From positions 125,690-189,689 of the forward strand of contig DATLDE010000005.1 of NCBI GenBank assembly GCA_035526025.1: DNA of 64,000 bases, in the 5' to 3' direction. Numbering within the stretch: the first letter of the stretch is position 1; each line of letters starts with the position of its first letter. The translations under genes were made by a program, and so were the position numbers. The notes under the pieces are model-generated. The model ran no database searches. It was not told the DNA's origin and saw only the letters and a program-made list of their open reading frames with translations. This stretch comes from Candidatus Limnocylindrales bacterium (GTDB taxonomy: Bacteria > Patescibacteriota > Microgenomatia > Levybacterales > UBA12049). This document shows, in pieces, positions 11,134 through 41,287 of this stretch.

Positions 11134-11161
11134 TGATATTAACAATGAAATTTATCAATTA

Positions 11162-11181
11162 CTCTCTCTCTCTCTCTCTCT
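11162..11181 (+). repeat. (CT)10 dinucleotide tract in 5' leader of cassette copy C
   Basis: 20-nt perfect CT repeat; length differs from copies A and B. Confidence 0.9.
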
Positions 11182-11228
11182 GAGAAACCCTCTATATTTA
11201 CTTCTCATCCTGAAAGGAGCATCTCCTA

Positions 11229-13307: not shown

Positions 13308-13381
13308 CCCGCCTCCGCATAATGCCGGCTGGGTGCGGTCAAATTATTGGATATTACCCTAAACCATATTTTAATTAGTCT

Positions 13382-13423
13382 ATGACACAATTACCGGTAC
13401 CCGGTTCAGATAATGGTACATAG
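13382..13423 (+). pseudogene. Cassette remnant D (MTQLPVPGSDNGT*), 13 codons
   Basis: Retains the LPVPGSD(D/N)GT codons of the conserved N-terminal module, then a stop; lies 170 nt upstream of the coupling-protein gene. Confidence 0.6.
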
Positions 13424-13596
13424 AATATGTTTAAAAGACTCAAGTGTTTATTAATAAATTAAGCAGAATATAAACAAACCATGATTCTCCTCTCCCATTC
13501 ATAATGTACAAAAGTTTTCTTTTCTGATATTATCAGCTTCATCTAAAACACTGTCCTCTTTAGAGAAAATCCTGCCTAGAAATATAGATACTGTTT

Positions 13597-16320
13597 ATGC
13601 CAACAAAATACATATCATTTCTTGCAGATCTTCCGGTATATTTAATTTTCCTCTCATGCATAACATTTACTTTGCTCATCGCTTATCTTATAACGCGACA
13701 CATATTGCTAAAAAGGAAACTCAATACCCCACATGTTGTTCTTTCAATTAAACCAATCAAGCAAACACTCCAGAGTTCCTATGCTACAGAGCAGTTATTT
13801 ACCCAACTCCATTCACTCATTAAAGGAAAAACATTCTGGCAAAGATTTATGCATGACAAAACATCAATAAGCGTTGAACTAGTTGCAACCAAAGAAGAGG
13901 GAATCCGCTACCTCATTCGCACAAATAAATCTGATGTTTCAGTTATCCGAAAAGCTATCCTGTCATATTTACCAAGTGTTGAGATAGAGGAGGTAGAAGA
14001 TTACCTGCCGCAATCAATCTCAGCTGTGAACAATTTCCTTAAAACAAATAAAGAAATAAGAGTTGTGATTTTTCGCCTATCAAATCACTTCGCAATTCCA
14101 TTAACAGATCAGAAACAACTTGATGAGCATGATCCGATTGCCTATCTCACAGGAAATATGACAAAACTCGCGCGTGAGGAGCTCGTTTCTTTGCAATTAA
14201 TTATTTCTCCGATGGATAAAGCAAGTAACAGAACTAAAACAAATGAAATAAATAGCTTGCTGTCTCATTTATTTCACAGTAAGGATATTTCCAATGTTAT
14301 TAAACATAACAGATTGCTTTCAATCCTTGTTTTCCCAATCAATGCGATTAGTAAATTAATTTACTTAACTCTTGGATTATTGATTGAAATTGTTGGTTAT
14401 ATAGCTGATATTGCAATGAGTAATAGTAACAACCAACAAAGTCCTCGTGACAATTCACAGGCTAAACTTAAAAAAATCTTTACCCCAACAGTCACTCAGC
14501 AAGTGTTATTCGGTCAAGTACATAACAAGCTACAACAGCCAATGTTTGAAACAAGTATGAGGCTTCTTGTAGCTGGCAATAGCTCAGATGCTGTTAGTGA
14601 GCGTATCAGAGGATTTAGAGCAAGTCTCGCAACATTTGATAATACACAATATCAGGCAATTATTCCAAGGCGATCAATCTCAATTCTACCTAAAAAGATC
14701 AAACAATATATTTTGTTTTTCTCACTATACCAAATTGGCAATAGACTGTTGTCTTTCTCTCACAATATTTTCCTCTCAATAAATGAGCTATCAAGTATCT
14801 ATCATTTGCCTTACACCCAAACAACCAAAACTGAGGATATGGTTAAAAGTAAAAGCAAAGAGCTGCCTGCTCCCCATTCATTTAAAAAAGCAGCAACACA
14901 ATTTGATGTTATAGTTGGTACTAATACATATGGTGGTGAACAGACAAAAGTTGGTTTGCCAGTAAGCAACCGCAAAGAGCATACATACATTGTCGGTAAA
15001 ACAGGAACCGGTAAAACAACGATTATTGAGGGAATGGCTCTACAAGACATAACAAATGGCAAAGGAATAGCTGTCATTGATCCCCATGGAGATTTGATTG
15101 AGCATTTACTAACTCTAATTCCTAAAAACAGACTTAAAGATGTGGTACTTGTTAATCCAGCAGATAAAGATTATCCATTGGGACTGAATATCCTCTCCCC
15201 CGGAACGCATTTTTCTGATGTCGATGAGGAAAACGGATTCATAACAAGAAGTCTTATGGCTGTGTTCATGAAAATTACACCTGATAAACATTGGGGGCAG
15301 AGAATGGAGCATATACTCAGAAACGCAACGCTTACTGCCTTAAAGGCACCTACACCAACACCTGAAACACCATATATTTCCTTGCTTTCTATTCAGAAAC
15401 TTCTAACTGACAGTAATTACCGTAGACGAATTACTCAAACCCTAACTGATCCGGTATTAAAACAGTTCTGGGAAAAAGAATATAGCTCATATGGAAAGTT
15501 TCAGCAGGCTGATGCCGCATCTCCTTTGACAAATAAGCTGGGAGGATTTATGACTGATAAGATGTCAAGAAATATCCTGCTTCAGGAAAAAAGTACAATT
15601 AATGTTTCAGAAATAATGGACCAGGAAAAGATTCTTCTTGTGAATCTATCAAAGGGCAAACTGGGAGAGGAGAGAAGTGCATTCTTTGGCACCTTAATGC
15701 TTTCCCTTATCCAACTGGCTGTATATGCAAGGGCTGAAATACCAGAAAAAGAAAGGCGCGATTTCTTTGTTTACATCGATGAATTCCAGAACTTTGCAAG
15801 CACGCACTTTACCGATCTTTTTTCAGAAGCACGAAAGTATCATGTATATTTCATGCCATCTCACCAAAACATTGCCCAAATTGAAGATCCCAAATTATCA
15901 AAAGTTGTATTAAGTAATAGCGGGAATTTAATAGCTCTTAAGAATGGACCGGATGATGAAAGGATTCTTTTACCTTTTCTTGAGCCTGAAGTAGAAAAAG
16001 GATCAATTGTTAATCTTTCCCCTCACCACTTCTACATGAAAGTAACCAATGAATACTCAGAAGATGCATTCTCGGGTGAAACCATACCGATAACAGAGCA
16101 AGGAAGCAGTAAAACAGCAATGGCAATTGTAGAAAATTCAAGAAGTAATTACGCTACTCCAAAAGCCGTAGCTGAGAAACAATTGGAAAAGTTGTTTTTG
16201 GAAATTAAGAAAGAAGTGAAACCCAAAAAAACGGATGGAGATATACAGCAAACGAAACAAAAACCAGCTGCAAAACAAGCAAAAATTACGAAGAAAAAGA
16301 TCAAAAAACAAGAAATATAA
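13597..16320 (+). CDS. Type IV coupling protein (VirD4/TraG/TraD family)
   Basis: 907 aa; N-terminal TM helices; Walker A 'VGKTGTGKTT'; Walker B-like 'FFVYIDEFQNF'; K-rich C-terminal tail. Confidence 0.8.
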   Translation: MPTKYISFLADLPVYLIFLSCITFTLLIAYLITRHILLKRKLNTPHVVLSIKPIKQTLQSSYATEQLFTQLHSLIKGKTFWQRFMHDKTSISVELVATKEEGIRYLIRTNKSDVSVIRKAILSYLPSVEIEEVEDYLPQSISAVNNFLKTNKEIRVVIFRLSNHFAIPLTDQKQLDEHDPIAYLTGNMTKLAREELVSLQLIISPMDKASNRTKTNEINSLLSHLFHSKDISNVIKHNRLLSILVFPINAISKLIYLTLGLLIEIVGYIADIAMSNSNNQQSPRDNSQAKLKKIFTPTVTQQVLFGQVHNKLQQPMFETSMRLLVAGNSSDAVSERIRGFRASLATFDNTQYQAIIPRRSISILPKKIKQYILFFSLYQIGNRLLSFSHNIFLSINELSSIYHLPYTQTTKTEDMVKSKSKELPAPHSFKKAATQFDVIVGTNTYGGEQTKVGLPVSNRKEHTYIVGKTGTGKTTIIEGMALQDITNGKGIAVIDPHGDLIEHLLTLIPKNRLKDVVLVNPADKDYPLGLNILSPGTHFSDVDEENGFITRSLMAVFMKITPDKHWGQRMEHILRNATLTALKAPTPTPETPYISLLSIQKLLTDSNYRRRITQTLTDPVLKQFWEKEYSSYGKFQQADAASPLTNKLGGFMTDKMSRNILLQEKSTINVSEIMDQEKILLVNLSKGKLGEERSAFFGTLMLSLIQLAVYARAEIPEKERRDFFVYIDEFQNFASTHFTDLFSEARKYHVYFMPSHQNIAQIEDPKLSKVVLSNSGNLIALKNGPDDERILLPFLEPEVEKGSIVNLSPHHFYMKVTNEYSEDAFSGETIPITEQGSSKTAMAIVENSRSNYATPKAVAEKQLEKLFLEIKKEVKPKKTDGDIQQTKQKPAAKQAKITKKKIKKQEI

Positions 16321-16463
16321 TTGCCCTAGGGAGCTAGGGCAAGAAATAGTATATTTTGAAGCTATTTTAAACCGTATCATGTTACCTACCCTTAAAAGAA
16401 TAAGGAGTAGGTTGGGTTAGGTAAAGATAAAATATATAAAATATTACTATAAAATAAATAAAC

Positions 16464-17255
16464 ATGACAATACCCTACATAACTAACAAACAACAAGAAA
16501 TAATAAATATAACCTCCCGATTCAGATTCCTAAATAGATTACAGATTCAAAAACTCCTAAACCATAAAGACTATAAAACAATAAATATGTGGTTAAAAGA
16601 TTTAGTAACAAAAGAATACCTAATAAGAATTTACGACAAAACTACATTTGGACAAAATACCAAACTAGCTATATATTACATAGGAATTAATGGTATCAGA
16701 TTTTTAAAAATACTAGATGATTATTCACCTGAGCTAGTCAGAAGACTATACAGAGACAAAGACAGATCAGAAAATTTTATAAATCAGTGTTTACTCTTAG
16801 CTGATGCATGTCTTACTCTCCGGGATCAAAGCAAAAATGGAATATCCTACAGCTTTACACTTGAGAGCAATTATATAAATCCTGACTCAGAATTCAATTT
16901 CCTTCAGGAACTTCATCCAAATCTAATTTTCACAAAACAAAAAAACAAAAGCATAAAACATTATTTAGTTGAAGCTCTTGAGCCAACACTTCCCCGTTAC
17001 TCAATTAGAAAAAGAATGAGAGACTATATAGATTTTTATTACTGTAACGAGTGGGAAAACAATATGGATAATATAGCTTTTCCAATAATCCTGGTTATTT
17101 GCTCTACCAAAGCTATTATGATTGCTACCAAGCGCTACACTAAAAAACTTCTTGTGGACAATCAACAACCTGAAGATCTATATATCAGGTTTGCAACGAT
17201 TAACGAGGTAAAAGAGCATGGGATAACCGGGGAGATTTGGGAAGAGTCTGAGTAA
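16464..17255 (+). CDS. Replication-relaxation family protein (candidate)
   Basis: 263 aa; N-terminal wHTH-like pattern 'EIINITSRFRFLNRLQIQKLL...WLKDLVTKEYLIRI' typical of Replic_Relax proteins; adjacent to T4CP. Confidence 0.45.
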   Translation: MTIPYITNKQQEIINITSRFRFLNRLQIQKLLNHKDYKTINMWLKDLVTKEYLIRIYDKTTFGQNTKLAIYYIGINGIRFLKILDDYSPELVRRLYRDKDRSENFINQCLLLADACLTLRDQSKNGISYSFTLESNYINPDSEFNFLQELHPNLIFTKQKNKSIKHYLVEALEPTLPRYSIRKRMRDYIDFYYCNEWENNMDNIAFPIILVICSTKAIMIATKRYTKKLLVDNQQPEDLYIRFATINEVKEHGITGEIWEESE

Positions 17256-17917: not shown

Positions 17918-20749
17918 TCAAATTTGTCCAAAACCGTATTTGCTTTCTCTTTTTTTAAAGGCTTCTTCTCCACCTTCAAGAATATCTTTAATTTTTATAT
18001 TAATAATCGGATTTTCTATGGAACCACTTATGTATCCTTTATTATCATCTTGATCTAATTGAGAAACAATTACTTGTTCAGCGTCAGCATTTACAACAAG
18101 ATTTGCATTATGTGTTGATAATATAATCTGTCTCACTTTTTTGATTCTTTTAATAAGGGGAACAAGCTGATTCATGATAAAGTGATTATCTAAGTTATCC
18201 TCAGGTTGATCAACGATAAATATTTGCTTAACACTAGCTGTTGCTAGATAGATTTTTAGCAATAATGTCCCTCTTTGTCCTACCGACAGTTTTTCTGTAG
18301 GGATTTCTTTTAATCGTGCAATTGCCTTAACGTGAATAAATTCATGCCATTTTGTAAATATGAAGTCAATAAATCTATTTATTCCACCTTCATTAAAATT
18401 CTCTTCTTTAAGGAAACTATTCAAATTATTATTAATCCACAGAGCCAATGAATCGAGTGTTATGTCTTTTATGATACCTTTGTCTTTTCCAGCTATGATC
18501 TCTTTAATATCTTGAGCTGATCTTACTCTTCTCCTATCAACGCAGCTGTTTAGAATGTAGTTACAAAATATTTCTTGCTTAAAATCAATTGCTCCCTCAA
18601 TACTAATATCACTTATAATATTCTTAAATAATTCCTTCTCATCTGTTGAGGAACTGTCCCGAGAGCTAGTAAACTCTATAAACTTCTCATCTATTATATC
18701 CTTGCTCAGTTTAACTTCTTTTATAATCTCAGAGTATAAATCGTTTCTCTCTTCTATCTTTTTGATAAGAATTTTTCTTTTTTCTTCATATGTTACAAGA
18801 TCCCTTGATGCATTATTAATTTCTTTTTGAATCGCCTCTATAGATTGCACCAGAGCAGTTATATCCTCTTTTATACCCAATGTAGAAAGCTTTATCTTTT
18901 TTTCTTCAATGGATTTATTAAGTTGTGTAATCTCTTCCCATACCTTTTTTTGTAAAATTTTAATAGATTTTTCTTGAGTATCAAGTACTATTTCTGGAAT
19001 TAATTCCAGATTTTCCTTGTACAAATCTTTCTGTGCTCTATTTAAGTCTGCTATTTCTTTATTGAGAGTAATAGATTTAACTCTTACAAGCAGATCCTCT
19101 ATATCGCTTGAGAAATCCCTAAGGCGCATCTTTCTGTCAATTTCTTTACTTATTTCTTCTAACAACTTCTTCGTTTCCTCTGATGAGAGTGTTTTCTTCT
19201 GAATTGATTTTCTATCAATATAGTTCCTTAACCATTGTTCAAAAGAAATTTGTTTTTTAAAATCAGGATATTTTTGATGTATATCAATAATTTCTTCTCT
19301 TATTATGTTGACGTCTGCTATTAAATTCCTTGCTACTTCGATTAATTGAGGCTTCTCAATATCTGAAAAATTTAAACTGATTAGCTCGCATACTTTTAAA
19401 GTAAGCTCTTTATCGTCTGTAGCTATCAAACTGAGTTGTTCTTGTCCAATGTACAAAAATGGTAAACTTAAGCTTTCAGAATCATCTAAAGTTTTCCCAA
19501 ACTCTTCTTGATTATTATCTTTATCAATCAATTTTGCCTTCAATGAAAATCCTGGAGAAGGATTTTTTAATTCAACGTTATCTCTATAAAATTCAATTAA
19601 CTTAGGCTTACCATTTTGGTCAGCTTTAGCATGTTCTTCATTTAAAAATGCAACTAAGTCTAAAAAAGCACTCTTTCCGCTTCCCCGGCCTCCAATGATT
19701 GTTACTAGCTCCCTGTTAAGGTAGAATTCTGCATTTGGGACGATAAAATTAACACTACCCTCTAAACTTATTTCATCAATATAAACTTTTTTTCTATCTT
19801 CAAAAGGGGATAGTTTCTGTATCTTAACTCTTTCTCCTGGTTCGTAAATGATTTGCTTTAAACCATCAAAGGTGGTGTCTGCTTTGATCCAACAAAATCT
19901 CATATCACAAGTGTCTGAACTTAAACTACAAGTGTGCCCTCTTTCTCCTCTCCTTGCGCAGGGTAACCCGATTTGCTCCAAGCTATGTGCATCTGAACCG
20001 TGGATGCAGGATTTTAGATTTCCATGTTTTCTGATAATTTCATCTTTATTATCAACGCCATTTCCTAAAAAATACGTAAAATCGTTTGGATTTCCAGAAA
20101 AAATACAGTGAGAAAACCTATAAATTTCTTGTCTTGTAGCGGATAAGCTAGAATGCTGAATCCCTGAGTTGCCATCCCTACTACTATTGGATACTACAAT
20201 TACAGAGTTATCTCTTAGTTCTTTATCTTTGGAAAAAATTTGCTGTAAGTTTGTAAGGTTTGTTTTAAATTGATTGACGCCCGCTTCATATGAAGCTTGC
20301 TCTGACAATGTTTCATCATTTGAATACTTCCTTCCTAGATTAATTAAATTGTCCTTAATACATTTATATGTTTCTCCTTGATATGTAAACTCAAGGCTGG
20401 AAAAAAATTTACTTTCTAAGGTATCGACGATTGAGGGATTAAAAATAATATGTAAATTTATTGGTGTTGACGTATCCGTTACTGGAACAATCCTTAATTC
20501 TACGTTTGGAAGAATCAAATCAATATTGGTTAAGTTACTATTATCTCTAATATATTTATATCCATCTACAGAAAAATAATCAGTTATCCCTACAACTGCA
20601 GTATCAGTTAATGTAGATAATTTTTCTAAGTACTTTTCCCATTTCTCTTCTATGGAAGACCCTTCAAATTGATTGTTGAGCGCAGAAACAGGAGAATGGA
20701 TATGCAAATCCCATTTTCTCCATTCAGATCCGCGTATGTATTTATCCAT
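17918..20749 (-). CDS. PHP-domain phosphoesterase fused to SMC/Rad50-like ABC ATPase with coiled-coil insert
   Basis: 943 aa; N-term 'WDLHIHSPVS...GITDYF...HGSDAHS' gives PHP motifs; 'IIGGRGSGKS' Walker A; a roughly 250-aa K/E-rich coiled coil; 'LSVGQRG' ABC signature; 'IFIVDQPEDNLD' Walker B/D-loop; 'LSTHNANL' H-loop. Confidence 0.7.
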   Translation of the reverse strand: MDKYIRGSEWRKWDLHIHSPVSALNNQFEGSSIEEKWEKYLEKLSTLTDTAVVGITDYFSVDGYKYIRDNSNLTNIDLILPNVELRIVPVTDTSTPINLHIIFNPSIVDTLESKFFSSLEFTYQGETYKCIKDNLINLGRKYSNDETLSEQASYEAGVNQFKTNLTNLQQIFSKDKELRDNSVIVVSNSSRDGNSGIQHSSLSATRQEIYRFSHCIFSGNPNDFTYFLGNGVDNKDEIIRKHGNLKSCIHGSDAHSLEQIGLPCARRGERGHTCSLSSDTCDMRFCWIKADTTFDGLKQIIYEPGERVKIQKLSPFEDRKKVYIDEISLEGSVNFIVPNAEFYLNRELVTIIGGRGSGKSAFLDLVAFLNEEHAKADQNGKPKLIEFYRDNVELKNPSPGFSLKAKLIDKDNNQEEFGKTLDDSESLSLPFLYIGQEQLSLIATDDKELTLKVCELISLNFSDIEKPQLIEVARNLIADVNIIREEIIDIHQKYPDFKKQISFEQWLRNYIDRKSIQKKTLSSEETKKLLEEISKEIDRKMRLRDFSSDIEDLLVRVKSITLNKEIADLNRAQKDLYKENLELIPEIVLDTQEKSIKILQKKVWEEITQLNKSIEEKKIKLSTLGIKEDITALVQSIEAIQKEINNASRDLVTYEEKRKILIKKIEERNDLYSEIIKEVKLSKDIIDEKFIEFTSSRDSSSTDEKELFKNIISDISIEGAIDFKQEIFCNYILNSCVDRRRVRSAQDIKEIIAGKDKGIIKDITLDSLALWINNNLNSFLKEENFNEGGINRFIDFIFTKWHEFIHVKAIARLKEIPTEKLSVGQRGTLLLKIYLATASVKQIFIVDQPEDNLDNHFIMNQLVPLIKRIKKVRQIILSTHNANLVVNADAEQVIVSQLDQDDNKGYISGSIENPIINIKIKDILEGGEEAFKKRESKYGFGQI

Positions 20750-26414: not shown

Positions 26415-26703
26415 GTATTCTACTTTTAAAAAAATCTCATATTTATGAAGATTTATTGGGCAAAAAATGTTAAATAAAAATATGCCCCTAGCAAGGTCAA
26501 TAACAGGTTCAGAATAACTGCAAGAAAAATCTTCCATAAAGCTTTAAAAGAATTGCTAAAATTGCGCTTGATATCCAGAGAAATGAAGCTAGTGTAGCAT
26601 TTAGTAAAACATGCTTTTTTGCTATACAAGCTAGAACCTGCTCACGCAGGCAATTCTGAATCATTTGGGGTCACAGCGAAGCTAGATAAACGGATTTCAA
26701 CTA

Positions 26704-27432
26704 TCAATCACTATGCTCACACCGCTGTGGTGGCTCTAATTTAGGAAGCGTTGTCTTGTTATGAACGAGGGCTGCGTTGTTTTTCACATATACGAAATAA
26801 TTATTACTTCCTGAAACCTGAGGATTATATACTGTAATTGGTGTTTCGCTTTGAACTTCCTCGATGCTCTCAATAACTAGTGGGACAATCGCCTCTGCAG
26901 CTACTAATTCATCTCCTGCAGCAAGTTCTTTTGCTTTTTTCCAAATTATGTTTCCAGACTTTCGCACCCCCATAGGATGTTCAGATGTAACTTTTAGTGT
27001 CCGGTTAATAAGATAATACGAATTTACTTTATAACTTCTGCACATCTCTATTTTTCCAGAAACAATTGTATTTGTTTTGATATCAAGACCCATCACCTCA
27101 TCACCTACATCTAGAGCAGAAATTCTCACTTTCCCCTTTGAAGTCCAGACTTGTGTATCACCTGTAAAGCTACTACTCATCCCCATGCCTAAAGCAGAAA
27201 ACACATACTGCAAGCCTACGTATGTTATTGCAGTAATAATGAAAATTACTATTCCTATTTTCATTTTCTTTACCCACATGTTATGAGGAGTATGCCTGAG
27301 TGAAGACAAAATTATACCCAAAATTCCGATAATAATCAGAATTACTGAAACGGTTGTTGAAATAAAAAATAATGAACTAATGATGTTTAGGAAAATACGA
27401 ATTGGTAAATACATATTACTTAGTATAGACAT
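26704..27432 (-). CDS. Membrane-anchored Hint (intein-like/BIL) domain protein
   Basis: 242 aa; 2-3 N-terminal TM helices, then 'SFTGDTQVWTSKG..ISALDVGDEV' (intein block A-like with Ser1), 'TSEHP' (block B T..H) and C-terminal 'NNAALVHN' (block G His-Asn). Confidence 0.55.
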   Translation of the reverse strand: MSILSNMYLPIRIFLNIISSLFFISTTVSVILIIIGILGIILSSLRHTPHNMWVKKMKIGIVIFIITAITYVGLQYVFSALGMGMSSSFTGDTQVWTSKGKVRISALDVGDEVMGLDIKTNTIVSGKIEMCRSYKVNSYYLINRTLKVTSEHPMGVRKSGNIIWKKAKELAAGDELVAAEAIVPLVIESIEEVQSETPITVYNPQVSGSNNYFVYVKNNAALVHNKTTLPKLEPPQRCEHSD

Positions 27433-27661: not shown

Positions 27662-29089
27662 TTACCAGTTATTTTGAGTATCAGGGATGCAGGAAGTTCT
27701 GACATATCCTGAAGAACCAGGAGATGTTAAATTCAAATTTCGAGTTATTGAATTTATATGCATAGCGTTCGTTGTTGCGCATTGTGCGTTGTTTTTGTAT
27801 TCTACTTCAAATACCGCCTTGCCTGCGTTCGTAAATGGCGAGAGTAGTCCGCATTCGTTATATTGATAACACTCCTCATTAACCGCCCAATCATAATAGG
27901 GCTGTAGCGCAACTATCTGGTCCACATCGTTTTTAAGTCCGATTGACAAACCATACGAATGGGCAAGTTGTGCGATCATCTTATTGTAATCTAACTGATT
28001 CTGAGCGGTAAGCGGAAAACCACTAGAGTTGGCATACCCATCCATATTATCTGTATCGACTGAATCAAATCCCTTGGTCTGACACATTTGCATACGACTC
28101 GCCATGAGTGGCTGCAATATATTAATTTGTCGGATATCCAGCCACTTCTCACCTTGCCAGCCGCTCACGATATTACCTTGCACAGAAGTTGGGAAGTTCC
28201 CTGCATCCGGTCGCCAATTTTCCCACGTGCCTGCATCGATATAGCAAATCGCCCTCAATCCTTTGGTATGCAGTGCACTCACGGTTGATGCGCTATTATC
28301 AAACCCGTCTATGTCATACACATGCACATTGGGAATCAAATCCGTTGCAGGATTTAGTGCACTTGCGAGTTGATATTGCCAGTGAAGCGGGGTACTTGCA
28401 CTCGGGCTCCACATTCCCGTAGATACGGGGACAGCTGTTGGTGTCGGTGTAGGAACAAAACTTGTCGGACTTGGCGTGCTAATAATAACAGGTGAGGGTG
28501 TTGGTGTCGGCACTGCAGTACTGCTTGCATCATCTATGACTAGATTATCAAATAGCATATCCCAGCTGAGTGTTGAGGTCACAGTGACAGGTGAACAGTT
28601 CGCAGTCCAGTTGCTTATAAGCGTTCGCGTATTACTAGGTGCGACAGTTATGCTTTTTGTTACCTGCCCTGCACAAGAAATCGTTACCTTTCCTGTGCTT
28701 CCGCCACCGTAGTTGTATGCATCAAGTGAGATAAGCCGTCTAGGCGTTATAAATGTGAATGATGCACTTTTTAAGCGTGTTGCAAATTGAAGATTATTGG
28801 TCTTAAACGTTCCGGACGGGCCATTGGTAATCCAGTTTTGCCCTCCCCAATCAATAAGTCCTAATGGATACTGACTCAAGGTCTGATTTGCACGCTGATC
28901 GTCAAATGTGAGAGTTTGCTGATTTGCTGCAGCGAGCATTCTGAAGTCTTGTTTCTGCTGGACGAGGAATAAAGTGCAGGCGATTCCGAACATAATAAAA
29001 CCCAGCATATATAATTTTGTTCGCGATGAACCTCTGGACGATTTTCGTCCAAGAAACCAAGTTGATTTACTTTTTGATGCCTTCGCCAT
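27662..29089 (-). CDS. Secreted/membrane-anchored glycoside hydrolase family 114-like (endo-alpha-1,4-polygalactosaminidase-like) protein
   Basis: 475 aa; N-terminal TM; PT-rich linker 'PTPTPSPVIISTPSPT'; C-terminal 'VYDIDGFDNSASTVSALHTKGLRAICYIDAGTWENWRPD' resembles GH114 TIM-barrel. Confidence 0.55.
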   Translation of the reverse strand: MAKASKSKSTWFLGRKSSRGSSRTKLYMLGFIMFGIACTLFLVQQKQDFRMLAAANQQTLTFDDQRANQTLSQYPLGLIDWGGQNWITNGPSGTFKTNNLQFATRLKSASFTFITPRRLISLDAYNYGGGSTGKVTISCAGQVTKSITVAPSNTRTLISNWTANCSPVTVTSTLSWDMLFDNLVIDDASSTAVPTPTPSPVIISTPSPTSFVPTPTPTAVPVSTGMWSPSASTPLHWQYQLASALNPATDLIPNVHVYDIDGFDNSASTVSALHTKGLRAICYIDAGTWENWRPDAGNFPTSVQGNIVSGWQGEKWLDIRQINILQPLMASRMQMCQTKGFDSVDTDNMDGYANSSGFPLTAQNQLDYNKMIAQLAHSYGLSIGLKNDVDQIVALQPYYDWAVNEECYQYNECGLLSPFTNAGKAVFEVEYKNNAQCATTNAMHINSITRNLNLTSPGSSGYVRTSCIPDTQNNW

Positions 29090-29893: not shown

Positions 29894-31378
29894 TTAGGAC
29901 TGCTTGAGCTTGACTAAGTGCTTATAGATCTCAACCATAGCCAGAGTATCAAGGCCACAATACTTTATCAGATCATCAAGGATTTGTTCTTTTTCTGCAT
30001 TTCGCTCTCCATACAGAATTGCCTCCATCCACAATCTTTGAGCTGAAGCTCCTTCCTGTATGCCAAGCGTTTTGTAGGACAATTCGGGAGCAAGAACAGG
30101 TAGAACTGCTTTTATTGAGGCACTGCCCCCAAATCCCTTATCAACATACCAACTACTTGAAAAGGGAATCATCAGATCAACGATCCGATTATTCACCTCC
30201 TCATAAAATTCCTTGTACTCAGTAAGGATTGTTCCAAGTAGCGTGTTACAACTTTTTTCAAACCCCGCGCTCCAGGCCAGAATCGATCCTGTGGTACCAA
30301 TTTGTGATTTAAGATTTTTACTAATCTCCTCAGCAGGATTGGAATTATCACTATGTAGATATTCAAAATGCCTGATCTCAGAATCAGGCGTCTCCAGAAC
30401 ATCCAGGGAATATTGAAAAGGAAGCTGTTGATACGCGCGGAGGTCATCAAAATATGGGACAATGCCACCCAGGGTCTCATAATCAAGAAAATAAAGAGGG
30501 TAAATAAGACTGGATAGAAAATCTCTGATTTTTTCTTTCTCTATCAGGACTCTATTTTGTTTGACTGATTCTACCTGTTGCTTTTGTTTGCCAGACAGTG
30601 GAAAGTCAGATGGTATTTCGTTAAGTTTCTTCACTTTCAATTCGTCAAATTTGCTAAGCAATTTGGTGTTAAGTACACATAAGTCATAAATGCTTTCAGG
30701 CTCAACACTGACCAACCCACGATAAATTCCAAGCCATTCTTTGAGAGATCCATACGCAGCAAGTGAAGGGGAAATATCAGGCATGACTTCTGAGTTGGCA
30801 ACTTTTAGAGCTGCCTTTATATTATCCTCGGTAAATTTTCTTTTGGCTTTTACGTTTTCTGTTATGTCTACAATAGTTGTAAATTCACCAGGGACTATAT
30901 CACCACGCTTAATATATTCATTATTAACATGAATTACTGAAATATTGCGAACTGTGTTTCCGCATAGCTCAAGTACAATCATTTGAAAAGCCAGATCTAG
31001 CTCGTGCTCTAATTTCACCTTTGTACTTGATTTTATTTCGTATAAATCAACTGTTTTTTCATCAACGATCTGGATTACATCACACACAAAAGTTAACTGA
31101 CTGTGTTCAAATCTTCCCTGGAATATCGTTTTTGCTCCCTCTTTTATAGCTCTTTGCGTACGCTCAGGTAGGCTCAGATATTCATAATAATCATCAAATC
31201 CTAGCCTTACTCCCTCAGGAAATAATTGCTCAGCATATGTTTCAAACAAATGACCCGCATCAAATACAGCTTGAGTGTTGTCATCAATTATAGGAAGCTT
31301 TGCTTTATCGTGTTTCTTAAGCCACAGCCATGCCGGGTGCTTGAGAAACATCATGTATTCTGATTTAGACAAAAGCAT
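29894..31378 (-). CDS. DUF2779-like PD-(D/E)XK (RecB-family) nuclease domain protein
   Basis: 494 aa; N-term 'LSKSEYMMFLKHPAWLWLK'; 'VDLYEIKSS' (D-x-E-x-K); C-terminal 'YFLDYETLGGIVPYFDDLRAYQQLPFQYSL' matches the DUF2779 hallmark. Confidence 0.6.
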   Translation of the reverse strand: MLLSKSEYMMFLKHPAWLWLKKHDKAKLPIIDDNTQAVFDAGHLFETYAEQLFPEGVRLGFDDYYEYLSLPERTQRAIKEGAKTIFQGRFEHSQLTFVCDVIQIVDEKTVDLYEIKSSTKVKLEHELDLAFQMIVLELCGNTVRNISVIHVNNEYIKRGDIVPGEFTTIVDITENVKAKRKFTEDNIKAALKVANSEVMPDISPSLAAYGSLKEWLGIYRGLVSVEPESIYDLCVLNTKLLSKFDELKVKKLNEIPSDFPLSGKQKQQVESVKQNRVLIEKEKIRDFLSSLIYPLYFLDYETLGGIVPYFDDLRAYQQLPFQYSLDVLETPDSEIRHFEYLHSDNSNPAEEISKNLKSQIGTTGSILAWSAGFEKSCNTLLGTILTEYKEFYEEVNNRIVDLMIPFSSSWYVDKGFGGSASIKAVLPVLAPELSYKTLGIQEGASAQRLWMEAILYGERNAEKEQILDDLIKYCGLDTLAMVEIYKHLVKLKQS

Positions 31379-31490
31379 ATTTTGTAATTTATCGCGATAA
31401 ATTATTTTTTATGTTTGGGATAATAATATTGGGCCAATATTGTAGGATTATAACTTGTTATCTGATAGATGTCCATTAGCCTATGAGTGA

Positions 31491-33005
31491 CTATTCATAC
31501 TGCAGATGAGATGCAAAAAGCTCTACTTCCTTCCGATCTATAACAGCATCAAGATTTTTAATACTTTCGTAATCAATATATTTTGCATCGTCAAGCAATT
31601 TCTTTAAGTCCGCAGGCAATTCCCATTTTGAGCTAAAAAGCTCTAAATTTTCACCGGTGGCATTTCTACATAGTTTTTCTTCAAAAAGAAAATAAATACT
31701 GTGTTTTATAGCAATTCTTTGTAACCATATTTCCAAAAGCCCAGAATTTGGTAATAAATTAATTTTTCGGAGTAACTTGTCTAGAACTTCCTTCTTACTC
31801 TCATGTGCCCTTTTATCAATAGCCTTACTAATTAATACAGCAACTATCGGAAAAGATCTTGGATTTTCATATGCAATATTAATAAGAATACTTATGATTT
31901 CAATATAATTATTTCGAAGTAAGGTAACTCTAACAGTATCATTTAGCCTCATTAATCTAATATTTACAGCACCACAATTAGGGTGGCTTGTCCCTATTGA
32001 ATATATAGTTAAAAGTTCATTCCGGAGTGTTTTTTTTGTGATCGTATTTGATAATGGCAACTTAAGCATGGCCAATTTATCTGGTTTAATTGAATCAGTA
32101 ATAATACTATCACTTTTTTTAGTTTTTGCGGTGTTTAGTGCCATACCAAGCTTAGCAAGTACCTCACTTAAGGACTTCATGATTAATTCTCCGTCTTTAG
32201 GATTTCGGACAAAAATTCTATAATCATCACGATAACGAAGAATTCTATATGAATCTTTACTAAGTAACTTTATTTTTTTAGAAAGTTCATGATCAGCGTA
32301 AGATAAAACTATCTCTGCAATAAAATCCATTAACACACTTCCTTGGGGTATTCCATTTGTTTGGCCATTGGACATTGCTTGAAGATGATGGTCAATTTTA
32401 TTGCCTAAAAGTTGATTATAATTTCGCTTCTCTTTTGAAATAGACTTTTCATGTAACGCCCATGCTATAGAGTGAGTATAAACAGAACCATAACAATTAA
32501 CAATGTCAGTTTGAAATAAATATTCAAAATCTAATGCTAAACGTATAGATTCTTTTTCAATCAAATCAAACCATTCATTCACCTGAGTGGCTTGTTGTTT
32601 CTTATTGGTATCGCCAATAACAGGCAAGCTTATACAGCTTATCGAATTATTGAATGAAAGACTTTTAAATCTGCTACAAATTATTTCCCAAGAGTCTCTA
32701 GCAGTGATAAGATTAACAAGCGAAACATATAGTACTGGATTAATTAATTCGTATTTTCTCCATGCATAATTACCATCTTTATTTCCGTAGATAATATGAT
32801 TTATATTCTCAGCGCTTTTAGCAGTCATAAGATTTTTTTCTGGGATGGGCCCTCCTCGCAATTTTTTAGAAAGTACCAACAAAGTCTTTTCAAATTCAAA
32901 GTATGGAGGCAGGTCCATACTAAAATATTTTTCTTGATTAAGGAAGAATTTATTAGCTTTTCTGCAATCTAATTTCAGAATGTTACTCCTCATAGTATCT
33001 ACCAC
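31491..33005 (-). CDS. Stand-alone reverse transcriptase (defence-associated/Abi-like RT candidate)
   Basis: 504 aa; motif A 'TDIVNCYGSV', motif B 'NGIPQGSVLMDFIAEIVL', motif C 'RYRDDYRIF' (YxDD); roughly 200-aa alpha-helical C-terminal extension; no maturase/En domain. Confidence 0.7.
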   Translation of the reverse strand: MVDTMRSNILKLDCRKANKFFLNQEKYFSMDLPPYFEFEKTLLVLSKKLRGGPIPEKNLMTAKSAENINHIIYGNKDGNYAWRKYELINPVLYVSLVNLITARDSWEIICSRFKSLSFNNSISCISLPVIGDTNKKQQATQVNEWFDLIEKESIRLALDFEYLFQTDIVNCYGSVYTHSIAWALHEKSISKEKRNYNQLLGNKIDHHLQAMSNGQTNGIPQGSVLMDFIAEIVLSYADHELSKKIKLLSKDSYRILRYRDDYRIFVRNPKDGELIMKSLSEVLAKLGMALNTAKTKKSDSIITDSIKPDKLAMLKLPLSNTITKKTLRNELLTIYSIGTSHPNCGAVNIRLMRLNDTVRVTLLRNNYIEIISILINIAYENPRSFPIVAVLISKAIDKRAHESKKEVLDKLLRKINLLPNSGLLEIWLQRIAIKHSIYFLFEEKLCRNATGENLELFSSKWELPADLKKLLDDAKYIDYESIKNLDAVIDRKEVELFASHLQYE

Positions 33006-33105
33006 TGATATTGAGGGTAATTATACTGGAAGCTTATAGAGAATGCTACGTGCAAAAAATCTAATTTAAAAAATATTTATTTTCTGAGGCAAGTCATGTT
33101 GCAAC

Positions 33106-34209
33106 CTATATATTACCTTTCCGTCGATTGTCTTCCCTGCATAACATCTGGCAATTCACAGTTAATGTTTTTCCACCCTCTACCCATGGCGTAATGTGAT
33201 CTGCTTCCATTTCTTCTATATCAAATCTATTTTTACAAAAACGGCAAACACCGTTCTGTCTCTCATATGCTTCCCTCCTCATTCTGTCAGTAAATGCACG
33301 TATACTTAGATAATTCTCCTTCCTCGTGAGAACGTAAGGGTAAATCCCAGATTTCTTTGTTACATCTTCATCTTGCATTAATACTTTTATTTCTTCTTCA
33401 AGTTTTACAGTATTTAGCTTTTGCTCATTAAATTGATTGTAGAGATCACCCCAATTTACATTTGCCATTTCTCTTCTGTAATTCGGGAACGCTTTTCGCA
33501 CCCAAGAGATAACGTCTTGAAAGTAATTCCATAACTCATCTGCATTTTTATCATGTTGATGTTTGGCCATGTAATCCGCAATTTCACCATTGTTAATCCA
33601 AGAAAGTGAAGTTTCTAAGTATTCTTGCCTTATCGGTGAACCCGCCAAAAGGGAACCACCATCATTGGCCAATAGATATGCAGCACAATTTGTTTTGCTG
33701 AATTTGAGTTTTGCATCAGACAACCAAGGGCCAGTATAAACAGCATTTTTAAGTTCCTGATCCGTAAGTTTTTCACCTGCAATATTAATAATTCTGAACC
33801 AATCCAAACGCTCTTTGTCTGTGCCTTCACAAAAATAAATCATTAATTGATAATCCAAAATCTGATTCTGTTCGTCAGGAGTTAAGTTGTGGAACATTGC
33901 TAATCTGCCATTAAAATCTACGGAAAAGTCGCCATTTACAAATTGTGCAAGACTAATTGTTCTTTGTTGGCCATCAAGTACTTCATATCCACCATCTTCT
34001 CTCACAACCCAGTACATCACATTAAGTGGGAACCCATTCCTGACAGTATCAATGACTGCATCTCGTTGTGTATCTTTGTAGATAAATTCGCGCTGGTATT
34101 TGGGACGAATATCAAGTTTGCCACAATATCCTACAACACCTTCTTCAGCATTGTCTGTATATTCATCAACTACTTCTCGCACTTTTATTTTTTGTAACTC
34201 AATCTTCAT
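33106..34209 (-). CDS. DUF262 (ParB-like, DGQQR) + C-terminal HNH nuclease protein, GmrSD-like
   Basis: 367 aa; 'VLDGQQRTISLAQF' DUF262 motif; C-term 'CRFCKNRFDIEEMEADHITPWVEGG...NCQMLCREDNRRKGN' HNH. Confidence 0.7.
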   Translation of the reverse strand: MKIELQKIKVREVVDEYTDNAEEGVVGYCGKLDIRPKYQREFIYKDTQRDAVIDTVRNGFPLNVMYWVVREDGGYEVLDGQQRTISLAQFVNGDFSVDFNGRLAMFHNLTPDEQNQILDYQLMIYFCEGTDKERLDWFRIINIAGEKLTDQELKNAVYTGPWLSDAKLKFSKTNCAAYLLANDGGSLLAGSPIRQEYLETSLSWINNGEIADYMAKHQHDKNADELWNYFQDVISWVRKAFPNYRREMANVNWGDLYNQFNEQKLNTVKLEEEIKVLMQDEDVTKKSGIYPYVLTRKENYLSIRAFTDRMRREAYERQNGVCRFCKNRFDIEEMEADHITPWVEGGKTLTVNCQMLCREDNRRKGNI

Positions 34210-34213
34210 ATTA

Positions 34214-35275
34214 CTAGACCTTTTTTCGTATCAAAATACGTCCATATTTAAGTTTGCCACTGATGTAAGGACCATCTTTGCCTGACGCAGAAGTAATTCC
34301 TGCTAAACCTTTGATGTTTCCTGCAATGAGACCAACTATTTCAAATTGTTCAGGGTTGTATTTATCTACAAATGTAATAGGGACACCCATTACACCATCG
34401 TGGTCTACAGGAATATCAGAAACTTTATTGACATTTATTGCGTTGTAATTGTCATACTTGAGAAACTCTTCTGGAGTATATTTCTTATATAATGTTAACT
34501 CTTGATGACGTTTTGTAGTTTCTAAATTTGTGAACCATAAAATTCTCCCCATACTGAAATACTTTACTCCATTCACAATCTTCTTTCTCGATTCTGTTGG
34601 GATATCATAGTCCATCGGAACCTGAAACCACTTTGTGCCACCATTGTCATTACCAAGCCACAATTTATTGTCTTTAATTAGCTTGAAAATCTCTTTGTAG
34701 GTAATGGCATTTTGATCACCAAGAATCAAAAAATTCTTCTTAAATTCAGTAAGCTGGGCTATATATTCACGAAACAAGGAGAAAGGAGGATTGGTGACGA
34801 CAATATCAGCCTCATTGAGTAGTTCAATGCACTCTTTACTTCTAAAATCTCCATTTTCTTTTAAAGGTGTTGACACGTTAGCATCACGTTTCAAAAGCCA
34901 CTCTACGTCTGTTAAATCTATGGCACCATCAGTATTTTTATCTGGCACGTCATTAATTTCAATCTTAAAAGGCTTTTTTCCTTCAGGTTTTAAACCTTGT
35001 ATTTCAAGAAGTGGGAGCTGTCCACCTGCAATAGAAGATTGGTCAAAACTCGTAGTTATAAGTTTCTTTAGTCCTAATGCATTAAAATTTGCAGCAAAAT
35101 ATTTGAAGAAATTGCTCTCAAAAGGATCATCACAATTACAATATACTACCTTGCCACGAAATTGATCCTTGTAATGCTTCAATTCTTTTTCAATGTCAGT
35201 TAACTGCGTATAAAACTCATCCTTCTTGGCTTTACCTGCCTTACCTAAGTTTGTATTTAATGATTTTGAATTCAT
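34214..35275 (-). CDS. N6-adenine DNA methyltransferase-like (gamma-class, NPPF motif)
   Basis: 353 aa; 'IVVTNPPFSLF' motif IV; upstream 'CDDPFESN' degenerate motif I; stop 4 nt from DUF262-HNH start. Confidence 0.5.
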   Translation of the reverse strand: MNSKSLNTNLGKAGKAKKDEFYTQLTDIEKELKHYKDQFRGKVVYCNCDDPFESNFFKYFAANFNALGLKKLITTSFDQSSIAGGQLPLLEIQGLKPEGKKPFKIEINDVPDKNTDGAIDLTDVEWLLKRDANVSTPLKENGDFRSKECIELLNEADIVVTNPPFSLFREYIAQLTEFKKNFLILGDQNAITYKEIFKLIKDNKLWLGNDNGGTKWFQVPMDYDIPTESRKKIVNGVKYFSMGRILWFTNLETTKRHQELTLYKKYTPEEFLKYDNYNAINVNKVSDIPVDHDGVMGVPITFVDKYNPEQFEIVGLIAGNIKGLAGITSASGKDGPYISGKLKYGRILIRKKV

Positions 35276-41238: not shown

Positions 41239-41287
41239 AATATTTATTTTACCATAGAACTAAAATCATGTAGTATTATTTATAGAT

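What the first reader, a model, noticed from the sequence alone, without database searches (positions are those of the whole stretch)
26704..27432. Stand-alone membrane-anchored Hint/bacterial-intein-like domain protein
After two to three TM helices the protein carries a roughly 140-aa segment with intein blocks A (S-F-T-G-D-T-Q-V), B (T-S-E-H-P) and G (...N-A-A-L-V-H-N), but no extein and a Lys at +1. Free-standing Hint/BIL domains are unusual. They can self-cleave or attach to targets and are known in hypervariable and secreted protein contexts. Here it lies beside a secreted GH114 hydrolase.
Basis: partly seen in the sequence, partly recalled or inferred. Interest (0 to 1): 0.6.

Follow-up and report, generated by a model that had tools for sequence, protein, structure and literature searches.

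The report
Membrane-anchored self-cleaving Hint domain protein
This gene encodes a small membrane protein whose outer part is a complete self-cutting "Hint" (bacterial intein-like) domain with nothing attached for it to release; it belongs to a recurrent but unstudied group, and its biological purpose is unknown.

Summary
Window 26704-27432 (-) encodes a 242-aa protein with two transmembrane helices (about 13-45 and 59-84), a Hint domain (S88-N225) and a 17-aa tail.

Evidence for the Hint domain:
- Pfam PT-HINT scores above its curated cut-off.
- A family profile hits the C. thermocellum BIL structure 2LWY at E 6e-25.
- An AlphaFold model (pLDDT 90) superposes on BIL structures (TM 0.83-0.87).
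- Ser88, Thr149, His152, His224 and Asn225 are invariant among relatives only 25-57% identical.

- Lys at +1 is the rule in this clade (108 of 131 domains), so it does not mark a missing extein.
- Terminal Hint domains with tiny tails are common among relatives: 60 of 109 top representatives. Fourteen of these place the scissile bond at the membrane surface, and 12 of the 14 use Ser1.

The GH114 neighbour is not conserved, and no toxin or immunity partner is present. Paired cysteines and the positive-inside rule place the Hint domain outside the cell.

Most likely this is an extracytoplasmic type-A BIL that cuts itself off its membrane anchor. Its role is unknown, and NCBI already names it "Hint domain-containing protein". 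I rate it a new variant of a known kind, of moderate interest.

The parts
26704..27432 (-). Whole ORF, 242 aa plus stop codon: TM hairpin, Hint domain, short tail. NCBI HUQ85082.1 starts at Met7.
27298..27396 (-). TM helix 1, residues about 13-45.
   Evidence: Hydropathy. AF2 helix 2-46 with pLDDT above 90.
27259..27297 (-). Short K/R/H-rich loop (RHTPHNMWVKKMK, residues 46-58), predicted to be cytoplasmic.
   Evidence: The loop holds 4 of the 5 K/R residues in the first 86 residues. The same pattern is seen in all 5 close homologues. The assignment rests on the positive-inside rule and is an inference.
27181..27258 (-). TM helix 2, residues about 59-84. It ends 3-4 residues before the scissile bond.
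27169..27174 (-). N-terminal junction Ser87|Ser88. Ser88 is Hint position 1, the predicted nucleophile for the N-O acyl shift.
   Evidence: It aligns to position 1 of 2lwy (C1A in the structure). S88-F89 are invariant in 19 family members.
26758..27171 (-). Hint / type-A BIL domain, residues 88-225 (138 aa).
26977..26988 (-). Block B, Thr149-Ser-Glu-His152 (the TxxH motif).
   Evidence: T149 and H152 are invariant in alignments A2 and A4. The motif aligns to TFDH of 2lwy.
26755..26763 (-). C-terminal junction His224-Asn225|Lys226 (block G plus the +1 residue).
   Evidence: H224 and N225 are invariant and K226 is at least 90% conserved. Lys is at +1 in 108 of 131 domains.
26707..26757 (-). The 17-aa C-terminal flank KTTLPKLEPPQRCEHSD. 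It is disordered in the model. Cys238 co-occurs with Cys131 of the Hint core.

Best explanation
The gene encodes a small envelope protein. A two-helix membrane hairpin (N-terminus out, K/R-rich loop in the cytoplasm) displays a complete type-A bacterial intein-like (PT-HINT clade) Hint domain on the outer face of the cytoplasmic membrane.

The domain keeps every residue needed for both self-cleavage reactions:
- Ser88, assisted by Thr149 and His152, would convert the Ser87-Ser88 peptide bond into an ester. That bond lies only 3-4 residues from the membrane surface.
- His224 and Asn225 would cut the Asn225-Lys226 bond by succinimide formation.

The most likely outcome is single-turnover autoprocessing that detaches the ~15-kDa Hint domain from its 87-residue membrane anchor. 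The 17-residue tail would be cut off, or ligated onto the anchor through its freed amine, as described for type-A BILs.

What is shown:
- Domain identity and fold.
- Conservation of the catalytic residues.
- The two hydrophobic helices, seen in the sequence and the model.
- Lack of any cargo domain or conserved partner gene.
- The existence of a recurrent subfamily with the same layout.

What is inferred:
- That the two helices span the membrane, and in which orientation, so that the Hint domain faces outwards.
- That cleavage actually occurs.
- Which bond is cut first.
- What the products do. The biological role is not known.
For: Domain identity:
- Pfam PT-HINT scores above the gathering cut-off.
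- PDB 2lwy BIL is hit at E 1.7e-6 by the single sequence and at E 5.7e-25 by the profile.
- The AF2 model (pLDDT 90.3) matches BIL2 6y75 and 2lwy with TM 0.83-0.87, ahead of inteins, Vint and Hedgehog.

Catalytic residues:
- S88, F89, T149, H152, H224 and N225 are invariant in 19 family members that share only 24-57% identity with the window protein.
- T149, H152, H224 and N225 are again invariant in the 28-domain alignment.

Outside location:
- K/R residues cluster in the inter-helix loop in all 5 close homologues.
- Apart from the position-1 nucleophile, cysteines occur only in pairs in 28 of 28 domains. Residues 175+184 are paired in 10 sequences, and 131+238 in the window protein, P0002 and P0003. 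This is the pattern expected of disulfides.
- Relatives carry N-terminal signal-like segments.

A stable architecture rather than debris:
- Four other sequences at 42-57% identity have the same layout.
- The gene sits near the same CCA-adding enzyme, sortase, Lon and CutA1 block in a second genome: Lon is 89% identical and the Hint protein 57%.
- An NJ clade of 34 domains holds 22 of the 27 Ser1 domains. Thirty of the 34 have tails of 18 aa or less.
- In 14 representatives the last TM ends 15 aa or less before position 1, and 12 of these use Ser1.

Chemistry precedent:
- Type-A BILs form the N-terminal (thio)ester and undergo Asn cyclisation. The freed amine can then ligate the flanks, but cleavage products dominate (PMC4031507).
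Against: - No biochemical data exist for this protein or for any member of its subfamily.
- With no cargo on either side, it is unclear what selective benefit self-cleavage brings.
- Conservation of the catalytic residues could also reflect a structural or binding role.
- The tail is disordered in the model (pLDDT about 50), so the active-site geometry at the C-terminal junction is not supported structurally.
- Topology rests on the positive-inside rule and on cysteine pairing. No dedicated topology predictor or experiment was used.
- The cysteine-pair evidence amounts to about 6 independent evolutionary events.
Confidence: 0.6

Rival explanations
1. BIL-type splicing rather than simple cleavage. 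After ester formation and Asn225 cyclisation, the freed amine of Lys226 (alpha, or its epsilon side chain) attacks the ester. The mature product would be a 104-residue membrane protein (hairpin plus KTTLPKLEPPQRCEHSD) together with a free Hint domain. The Hint domain would then act as an intein-like maturation device for a tiny membrane protein.
For: - Type-A BILs can splice without a +1 nucleophile through the freed amine (PMC4031507).
- Tetrahymena BIL2, the best structural match, forms a Lys epsilon-amine isopeptide (PMC8616854).
- Lys is at +1 in 108 of 131 domains.
- The tail is partly conserved in the close clade (K226, P230, L232).
Against: - Across the subfamily the tails are 1-18 aa long and unconserved beyond K-[TSQ]-x-x-P. 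Some proteins appear to end at HNK or HNKH, although contig truncation of these records was not excluded.
- The N-terminal anchors are also unconserved (1-7 TM segments), so no conserved 'mature' product exists.
- Reviews state that cleavage dominates over splicing in type-A BILs.
- An oxyester from Ser1 is less reactive to aminolysis than a thioester (general chemistry).
Confidence: 0.15
2. Decayed remnant of a polymorphic toxin. An ancestral anchor-Hint-toxin protein lost its toxin module, and what remains is a functionless or slowly decaying gene.
For: - The domain belongs to the PT-HINT clade, whose classical members sit just upstream of toxin domains (PMC3482391).
- Relatives with 100-1500 aa after His-Asn are present among the hits.
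- The K-x-x-P start of the tail resembles the linkers seen in those longer proteins.
- The gene lies in a variable region rich in mobile and defence genes.
Against: - The same short-tailed layout is kept in 5 sequences at 42-57% identity, with all catalytic residues intact and no frameshifts.
- The gene holds a similar chromosomal position in two genomes.
- Short-tailed, TM-anchored forms cluster together in the tree, 30 of 34, instead of being scattered as independent truncations would be.
- There is no adjacent immunity-like gene. The 51-aa ORF downstream is not conserved.
Confidence: 0.1
3. Single-turnover transferase or tether. The ester formed at the membrane surface is resolved not by water but by an external amine or hydroxyl, such as a peptidoglycan stem-peptide amine, another surface protein's lysine or a lipid head group. 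This would covalently link the C-terminus of the membrane hairpin to that acceptor while the Hint domain leaves, analogous to Hedgehog cholesterol transfer or BUBL-BIL2 conjugation.
For: - The scissile bond lies 3-4 residues from the end of TM2. This arrangement recurs in 14 representatives, 12 of them Ser1.
- Hedgehog and BIL2 show that Hint (thio)esters can be passed to non-water acceptors.
- The Hint domain, not its flanks, is the conserved part.
Against: - This is purely analogical. No acceptor-binding region is present: there is no sterol-recognition-like extension, only a 17-aa disordered tail.
- No conserved partner gene exists.
- The conserved His-Asn is not needed for such a reaction.
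Confidence: 0.08
4. The Hint domain releases the 17-residue tail as a diffusible peptide, for example a signal or an antimicrobial. It would work as a minimal 'pretoxin' module whose cargo is a peptide.
For: - PT-HINT domains release whatever follows His-Asn (PMC3482391).
- The tail is partly conserved among the three closest sequences, including a Cys.
Against: - The tail shrinks to 1-10 residues in other subfamily members.
- Cys238 co-occurs with Cys131 of the Hint core, which suggests the tail is disulfide-stapled to the domain rather than released.
- There is no export, immunity or receptor gene nearby.
Confidence: 0.04
5. Functional pair with the upstream GH114 hydrolase, for example processing or anchoring of the glycosidase.
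For: - The two genes are adjacent on the same strand, 229 bp apart.
- Both are predicted envelope proteins.
Against: - GH114 is absent next to the homologues in L001, L004, L058 and L060.
- The intergenic region holds a hairpin and a promoter-like site, which suggests separate transcription.
- The GH114 protein has no Hint-related motif.
Confidence: 0.03

Closest known systems
Type-A bacterial intein-like (BIL) domains, e.g. Clostridium thermocellum BIL (PDB 2LWY); Pfam PT-HINT PF07591
   Same: - Best sequence and structure match: profile E 5.7e-25, TM 0.87, rmsd 2.1 A.
- Nucleophile at position 1, block B TxxH, C-terminal His-Asn and no +1 nucleophile.
   Different: - Position 1 is Ser rather than Cys.
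- The domain is at the very end of the protein with only 17 residues after it.
- The N-terminal flank is a bare two-helix membrane hairpin rather than a secreted variable protein.
- No C-terminal variable or toxin domain and no immunity gene are present.
BIL2 of the Tetrahymena thermophila BUBL1 polyubiquitin-like locus (PDB 6Y75/6TMM)
   Same: - Top Foldseek hit (E 6.7e-11, TM 0.83) and a strong profile hit (E 5e-12).
- It uses an amine (Lys) rather than a +1 Cys/Ser/Thr to resolve the thioester, which is relevant to the conserved +1 Lys here.
   Different: - BIL2 is eukaryotic and cytoplasmic, and is flanked by ubiquitin-like domains that serve as cargo.
- The window protein has no ubiquitin-like or any other cargo domain.
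- It is predicted to be extracytoplasmic.
Pretoxin HINT modules of polymorphic toxins (MafB class 1, CdiA, Rhs and others)
   Same: - Same Pfam family.
- Secreted or surface context.
- Autoproteolytic chemistry at His-Asn.
   Different: Those modules sit immediately upstream of a C-terminal toxin and next to an immunity gene. Here there is neither.
Hedgehog / Hog C-terminal autoprocessing domains
   Same: - A Hint domain placed at the C-terminal end of the protein.
- Its position-1 nucleophile would cleave off everything upstream.
- The fold match is significant (6tyy and 1at0, E about 3e-6).
   Different: - Hog domains lack the C-terminal His-Asn and carry a sterol-recognition region.
- Their junction is Gly-Cys.
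- Their cargo is a signalling domain.
- Sequence similarity is below the Pfam cut-off (PF01079: 15.9 bits against 29.7).
Canonical mini-inteins
   Same: - Same fold and the same blocks A, B, F and G.
- No homing endonuclease.
   Different: - The +1 residue is Lys, not Cys/Ser/Thr.
- The domain is not inserted in a conserved site of a housekeeping protein.
- Intein Pfam and NCBIfam models score below their cut-offs.

Membership tests
HINT superfamily (fold level) | Hint beta-fold (horseshoe of paired beta-hairpins) | tested here: met
   AF2 pLDDT is 90.3 and residues 88-225 are all-beta. Foldseek gives 58 PDB matches at E<=1e-3; every one of the 50 listed is a BIL, intein, Vint or Hedgehog structure.
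HINT superfamily (fold level) | Nucleophile (Cys/Ser) at position 1 and block B Thr-x-x-His | tested here: met
   S88, T149 and H152 are invariant in A2, and T149 and H152 in A4. They align to the corresponding 2lwy residues.
Type-A BIL / PT-HINT (PF07591) | Score above Pfam's curated cut-off | tested here: met
   34.8 bits against 27.7, covering profile positions 2-136 of 137.
Type-A BIL / PT-HINT (PF07591) | C-terminal His-Asn and no Cys/Ser/Thr at +1 | tested here: met
   H224-N225 followed by K226. 'VHN|K' occurs in 108 of 131 related domains. Definition taken from PMC4031507.
Type-A BIL / PT-HINT (PF07591) | Embedded between an N-terminal secreted region and a C-terminal variable or toxin region | tested here: not met
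   Only 17 disordered residues follow the domain. The N-flank is a TM hairpin with no Pfam match.
Type-A BIL / PT-HINT (PF07591) | Autocatalytic N- and/or C-terminal cleavage | not testable with these tools
   Needs protein expression and mass spectrometry. Here only the conservation of the catalytic residues is shown.
Polymorphic toxin system | C-terminal toxin domain plus an adjacent immunity gene, often with orphan cassettes | tested here: not met
   There is no domain after the Hint domain. The downstream 51-aa ORF is not conserved. PADLOC gives no hit. Neighbouring genes differ in all five loci read.
Canonical intein | +1 Cys/Ser/Thr and insertion in a conserved host-protein site | tested here: not met
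   The +1 residue is Lys. The flanks are a TM hairpin and a short tail, and they vary freely across the subfamily. Intein_splicing scores 24.3 against 35.8 bits, and TIGR01445 scores 14.4 against 24.5.
Type-B BIL (Hint_2, PF13403) | Hint_2 profile match and a non-intein C-terminal motif | tested here: not met
   23.7 bits against 28.4, covering residues 88-124 only. The C-terminus is the intein-like His-Asn.
Hedgehog/Hog autoprocessing domain | Hog Hint profile match, sterol-recognition region, and no C-terminal Asn | tested here: not met
   PF01079 scores 15.9 against 29.7 bits. The tail is 17 aa. His-Asn is present.

The most novel reading that the evidence does not exclude
The Ser1, membrane-proximal, cargo-less Hint proteins would form a distinct functional class. 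In this class the ester created at the membrane surface is passed to an amine. The acceptor would be either the conserved +1 lysine, giving a branched or spliced micro-membrane protein, or an external acceptor such as peptidoglycan or another surface protein. The Hint domain would then be a self-consuming, ATP-independent ligase that covalently tethers a membrane anchor to the cell envelope. This would be a bacterial counterpart of Hedgehog lipidation and of BUBL-BIL2 conjugation.
Probability: 0.1. Interest if true: 0.75.

Novelty: new variant of a known kind. Interest (0 to 1): 0.4.

Why it matters
Hint domains are known as devices that release or join something: exteins, Hedgehog ligands, toxins or ubiquitin-like proteins.

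Here the device is fully intact but has nothing obvious to deliver. The same layout recurs in dozens of uncultured lineages: a membrane anchor, a scissile bond at the membrane surface, a Ser nucleophile and a tiny tail.

If the domain is active, either the freed Hint domain or the newly created C-terminus of the anchor must be the functional product. Neither is a described use of Hint chemistry in bacteria.

The practical value is modest. A naturally Ser1, disulfide-compatible, extracellular mini-BIL with a +1 Lys could be a useful scaffold for cysteine-free protein ligation. The finding is not a new principle unless transfer to an acceptor is demonstrated.

Tried and rejected
1. First AF2 run, using only 5 close sequences. 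The Hint part came out with pLDDT below 50 and was unusable. The run was repeated with 54 sequences.
2. Word-index homologue search with full-length queries. It returned only 4 and then 9 hits, probably because TM-derived words dominated the candidate list. A Hint-only alignment gave 93 hits.
3. The search for related loci with the diverse alignment A2. It failed because no stretch was conserved enough.
4. The search for related loci with the close alignment A3. It found no relative above about 40% identity in 185,579 species genomes, so no organism-level distribution could be given for the close clade.
5. Conserved gene neighbourhood. None was found across five loci. GH114, a response-regulator-like gene, a HAD hydrolase and UvrA are each seen only once.
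6. Sortase-signal reading of the tail (LPKLE against LPxTG). Rejected: the motif does not fit, and no hydrophobic or positively charged C-terminal segment follows.
7. Defence-system membership. There was no PADLOC hit for the Hint protein or its two downstream neighbours.
8. Small 51-aa ORF at 26509-26664 as an immunity gene. Rejected because it is not conserved in L001 or L004.
9. AFDB fold search. That library was unavailable.
10. The primary BIL papers (Dassa 2004, Aranko 2013) are not held. Their content is cited only through reviews.
Full report
**1. What is in the sequence**

Window 26704..27432 (minus strand) is an ATG-initiated ORF of 242 codons. The parts, checked by translation, are:
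- residues 1-12: a short N-terminal tail;
- residues about 13-45 and 59-84: two long hydrophobic stretches, separated by the basic loop RHTPHNMWVKKMK;
- GMGMS, then S88-FTGDTQV;
- V-T149-SE-H152-P;
- NAALV-H224-N225;
- K226-TTLPKLEPPQRCEHSD, then the stop codon.

Hydropathy and the AlphaFold model (helices 2-46 and 50-80, pLDDT above 90 for most of both helices) agree on two membrane helices, not three.

NCBI holds the identical protein starting at Met7: HUQ85082.1, 'Hint domain-containing protein', from a MAG labelled Candidatus Limnocylindrales.

**2. Is it a Hint domain?**

Yes, by four independent lines.
- Pfam PT-HINT (PF07591) scores 34.8 bits against a curated cut-off of 27.7 and covers almost the whole profile. 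The intein, Hint_2, Hog and homing-endonuclease Hint models all score below their cut-offs.
- The single sequence finds the Clostridium thermocellum bacterial intein-like domain 2LWY end to end at E 1.7e-6. A 19-member family profile raises this to E 5.7e-25. The next hits are an 'Intein C-terminal splicing domain-containing protein' (8W20) and the Tetrahymena BIL2 domain.
- An AlphaFold2 model built on 54 homologues reaches pLDDT 90.3 and pTM 0.75.
- Foldseek ranks BIL2 (6Y75, E 6.7e-11, TM 0.83) and 2LWY (TM 0.87, rmsd 2.1 A) first, ahead of mini-inteins, the Vint domain and Hedgehog.

The catalytic set is intact. S88, F89, T149, H152, H224 and N225 are invariant across 19 relatives that share only 24-57% identity with the window protein, and T149, H152, H224 and N225 are also invariant in a 28-domain alignment.

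By the published definition, this is a type-A BIL (PMC4031507; PMC7765530). That definition requires a C-terminal His-Asn and no +1 nucleophile. Such domains form an N-terminal (thio)ester, cyclise the Asn, and give mostly cleavage products with occasional splicing.

**3. What the relatives show**

An exhaustive HMMER search of 1.84 billion cluster representatives found 1876 proteins at E<=1e-3 and 134 at E<=1e-10. I re-scanned the top 153 proteins (the 149 new representatives from that search plus P0001-P0004) with a Hint HMM. Three architectures appear:
- (a) arrays of 2-4 directly abutting Hint domains ('LVHN|KGGGCF...');
- (b) large proteins in which 100-1500 residues follow the domain (the classical pretoxin layout);
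- (c) proteins that end 1-18 residues after His-Asn.

Lys follows His-Asn in 108 of 131 complete domains, whatever comes next.

Layout (c) is not rare.
- Of 109 representatives whose last domain is complete, 60 have 20 residues or fewer after His-Asn, and 39 of those have an upstream hydrophobic segment.
- In 14 of them the last hydrophobic segment ends within 15 residues of Hint position 1, as it does here.

Position 1 is Cys in most domains but Ser in 27.
- Ser1 domains are each other's nearest neighbours in 22 of 27 cases.
- One NJ clade of 34 domains holds 22 of the Ser1 domains, and 30 of its 34 members have tails of 18 aa or less.
- Twelve of the 14 'junction at the membrane' proteins are Ser1.

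The window protein therefore belongs to a coherent subfamily defined by a membrane anchor, Ser1, a terminal position and a tiny tail.

A word-index search seeded with the Hint part alone listed a further 93 small (91-286 aa) Hint proteins. Where their sources name them at all, the names are 'Hint domain-containing', 'polymorphic toxin-type HINT domain-containing', 'intein/homing endonuclease' or hypothetical. I found no paper that describes this layout.

**4. Close clade and genomic context**

Four other sequences share 42-57% identity and the exact layout. All are from metagenomes: P0002-P0004 and P0005; alignments.

None of the 185,579 GTDB species genomes holds a relative above about 40% identity.

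In the 440-kb JGI contig that carries P0002, the gene lies downstream of the same block as in the window:

| Gene | Identity to the window copy |
|---|---|
| CCA-adding enzyme | 80% |
| sortase | 54% |
| Lon | 89% |
| 650-aa protein | 47% |
| CutA1 | 69% |
| Hint protein | 57% |

The Hint gene thus sits near the same block in both genomes, which suggests a chromosomal, vertically inherited gene that evolves at the pace of surface proteins.

In the window, 13.5 kb lie between CutA1 and the Hint gene. This stretch holds glycosyltransferase, kinase, EamA, MsrA, an EcoRI-type methylase with a restriction enzyme, an AbiP2-type defence reverse transcriptase, a Cas4-like DUF2779 protein, an HTH protein and GH114. 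In the other genome only three small genes lie there.

The immediate neighbours differ in all five loci read: GH114, a response-regulator-like gene, a 40-aa ORF, a HAD hydrolase and UvrA. There is therefore no conserved partner, no immunity gene and no link to GH114.

The 229-bp spacer between GH114 and the Hint gene contains a hairpin and a promoter-like site.

**5. Which side of the membrane?**

In all five close homologues the K/R residues concentrate in the loop between the helices: 4-7 in the loop against 0-1 in the N-tail. By the positive-inside rule this puts the loop in the cytoplasm and both termini, and hence the Hint domain, outside.

Cysteine pairing gives independent support. Apart from the position-1 nucleophile, cysteines in the 28-domain alignment occur only in even numbers:
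- ten sequences have both Cys175 and Cys184 (window numbering);
- the window protein, P0002 and P0003 have both Cys131 and the tail Cys238, while P0004 and P0005 have neither;
- three others have a pair within the tail, and one has a pair just before the domain.

That makes about six independent pairs and no singleton, which is the signature of disulfides in an oxidising compartment. In the window protein it also suggests that the tail is stapled to the Hint core.

This is inference. The sample is small and partly redundant.

**6. How it most likely works**

The shown facts are an intact type-A BIL active site at both junctions, two N-terminal hydrophobic helices read as a membrane anchor, and no cargo.

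The inferred mechanism has three steps.
1. Ser88 attacks the Ser87 carbonyl (N-O acyl shift, assisted by Thr149 and His152).
2. Asn225 cyclises and cuts before Lys226.
3. The ester is hydrolysed, which frees the Hint domain from the anchor.

I put about 0.6 on 'extracytoplasmic, catalytically competent, self-detaching Hint domain'.

The main uncertainty is purpose. Because the Hint domain, and not its flanks, is the conserved element, the flanks cannot be a conserved cargo.

Rival readings, with my estimates:

| Reading | Estimate | Main point |
|---|---|---|
| BIL-type splicing of the tail onto the anchor through the freed Lys amine | 0.15 | Supported by BIL precedent and the +1 Lys; weakened by the unconserved flanks |
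| Toxin-less remnant | 0.10 | Weakened by the conserved layout, the similar gene position in two genomes and the clade structure |
| Ester transfer to an external acceptor | 0.08 | Attractive because the junction sits at the membrane surface and Hedgehog and BIL2 set precedents; no acceptor site is evident |
| Release of the tail as a peptide | 0.04 | |
| GH114 partnership | 0.03 | |

**7. Comparison with known families**

It works like, and by sequence and fold is, a type-A BIL / PT-HINT domain. It does not meet the contextual definition of those domains, which are embedded between a secreted N-terminal region and a C-terminal variable or toxin region.

Three other assignments fail:
- It is not an intein: the +1 residue is Lys, there is no conserved host site, and the intein models score below their cut-offs.
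- It is not a type-B BIL.
- It is not a Hog domain: His-Asn is present and there is no sterol-recognition region.

Positionally it resembles Hedgehog, with a Hint domain at the C-terminal end that cleaves off everything upstream. Here, however, 'everything upstream' is only a membrane hairpin.

**8. Verdict**

The protein is a new variant of a known kind: a Ser1, membrane-hairpin-anchored, cargo-less terminal BIL. It belongs to a recurrent but uncharacterised subfamily seen almost entirely in metagenomes and MAGs.

It is already annotated generically in NCBI. It does not overturn anything known, but its function is a real open question that a simple cleavage and mass-spectrometry experiment could address.

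Interest 0.4. The most novel reading not excluded is a self-consuming envelope ligase, at about 0.1 probability.

Noticed in passing
window 114-17255: A conjugation module: a TraG/VirB4-like ATPase (114-2279), TrbL/VirB6 (3091-4614), a type IV coupling protein (13597-16320) and a relaxase-like gene (16464-17255). It encloses a GC-rich block at about 6-14 kb (GC 0.46-0.54 against about 0.35 elsewhere). That block holds large ORFs with no convincing Pfam match: 6852-9143 has only a sub-threshold CBM_4_9 hit, and 11229-13307 has none. This looks like an integrated conjugative element with foreign cargo.
   Followed up: partly
window 17918-20749 and 29894-35275: A cluster of defence genes:
- an AbiP2-type DRT reverse transcriptase (31491-33005, 579 bits in PADLOC);
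- a type II restriction enzyme with GmrSD_N and HNH domains (33106-34209);
- an EcoRI-type adenine methylase (34214-35275);
- a DUF2779/Cas4-like nuclease (29894-31378);
- a Ppl-like ABC/AAA ATPase (17918-20749).
   Followed up: partly
window 27662-29089 (-): The GH114 protein (NCBI: endo alpha-1,4 polygalactosaminidase) has an N-terminal signal-anchor, an unassigned domain of about 150 aa and a Pro/Thr-rich linker ahead of the catalytic domain. Its adjacency to the Hint gene is not conserved elsewhere.
   Followed up: partly
whole window: The NCBI record labels the MAG Candidatus Limnocylindrales, but the window's GC content is about 35%. No close relative of the Hint protein exists in 185,579 GTDB species genomes. 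The taxonomic label or the binning may deserve a check.
   Followed up: no
relatives P0007, P0020, P0027, P0038, P0058: These proteins carry 2-4 directly abutting Hint domains joined by 'LVHN|K-G-G-(G)-C-F', after a signal-like segment and often before a Gly-rich region and a TM helix. If every junction is active, these would be self-dismantling Hint polyproteins. I did not find this described.
   Followed up: no
window residues Cys131 (27040-27042) and Cys238 (26719-26721); alignment A4: In 28 of 28 related domains, non-nucleophile cysteines occur only in pairs. Positions 175+184 are paired in ten sequences, and 131+238 in the window protein and its two closest relatives. This suggests disulfides, an extracytoplasmic location, and in this protein a staple between the tail and the Hint core.
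   Followed up: partly
window 26509-26664 (-): A 51-aa ORF with a hydrophobic C-terminal half lies about 40 bp downstream of the Hint stop codon on the same strand. No counterpart exists downstream of the homologues in L001 or L004, so it is probably not a gene.
   Followed up: partly
window 40933-48233 compared with L001 168-7813: A shared gene block with a 440-kb JGI metagenome contig: CCA-adding enzyme, class F-like sortase, Lon, a 650-aa protein without a Pfam match, and CutA1. Identities range from 47% to 89%. The block could be used to place the organism.
   Followed up: partly
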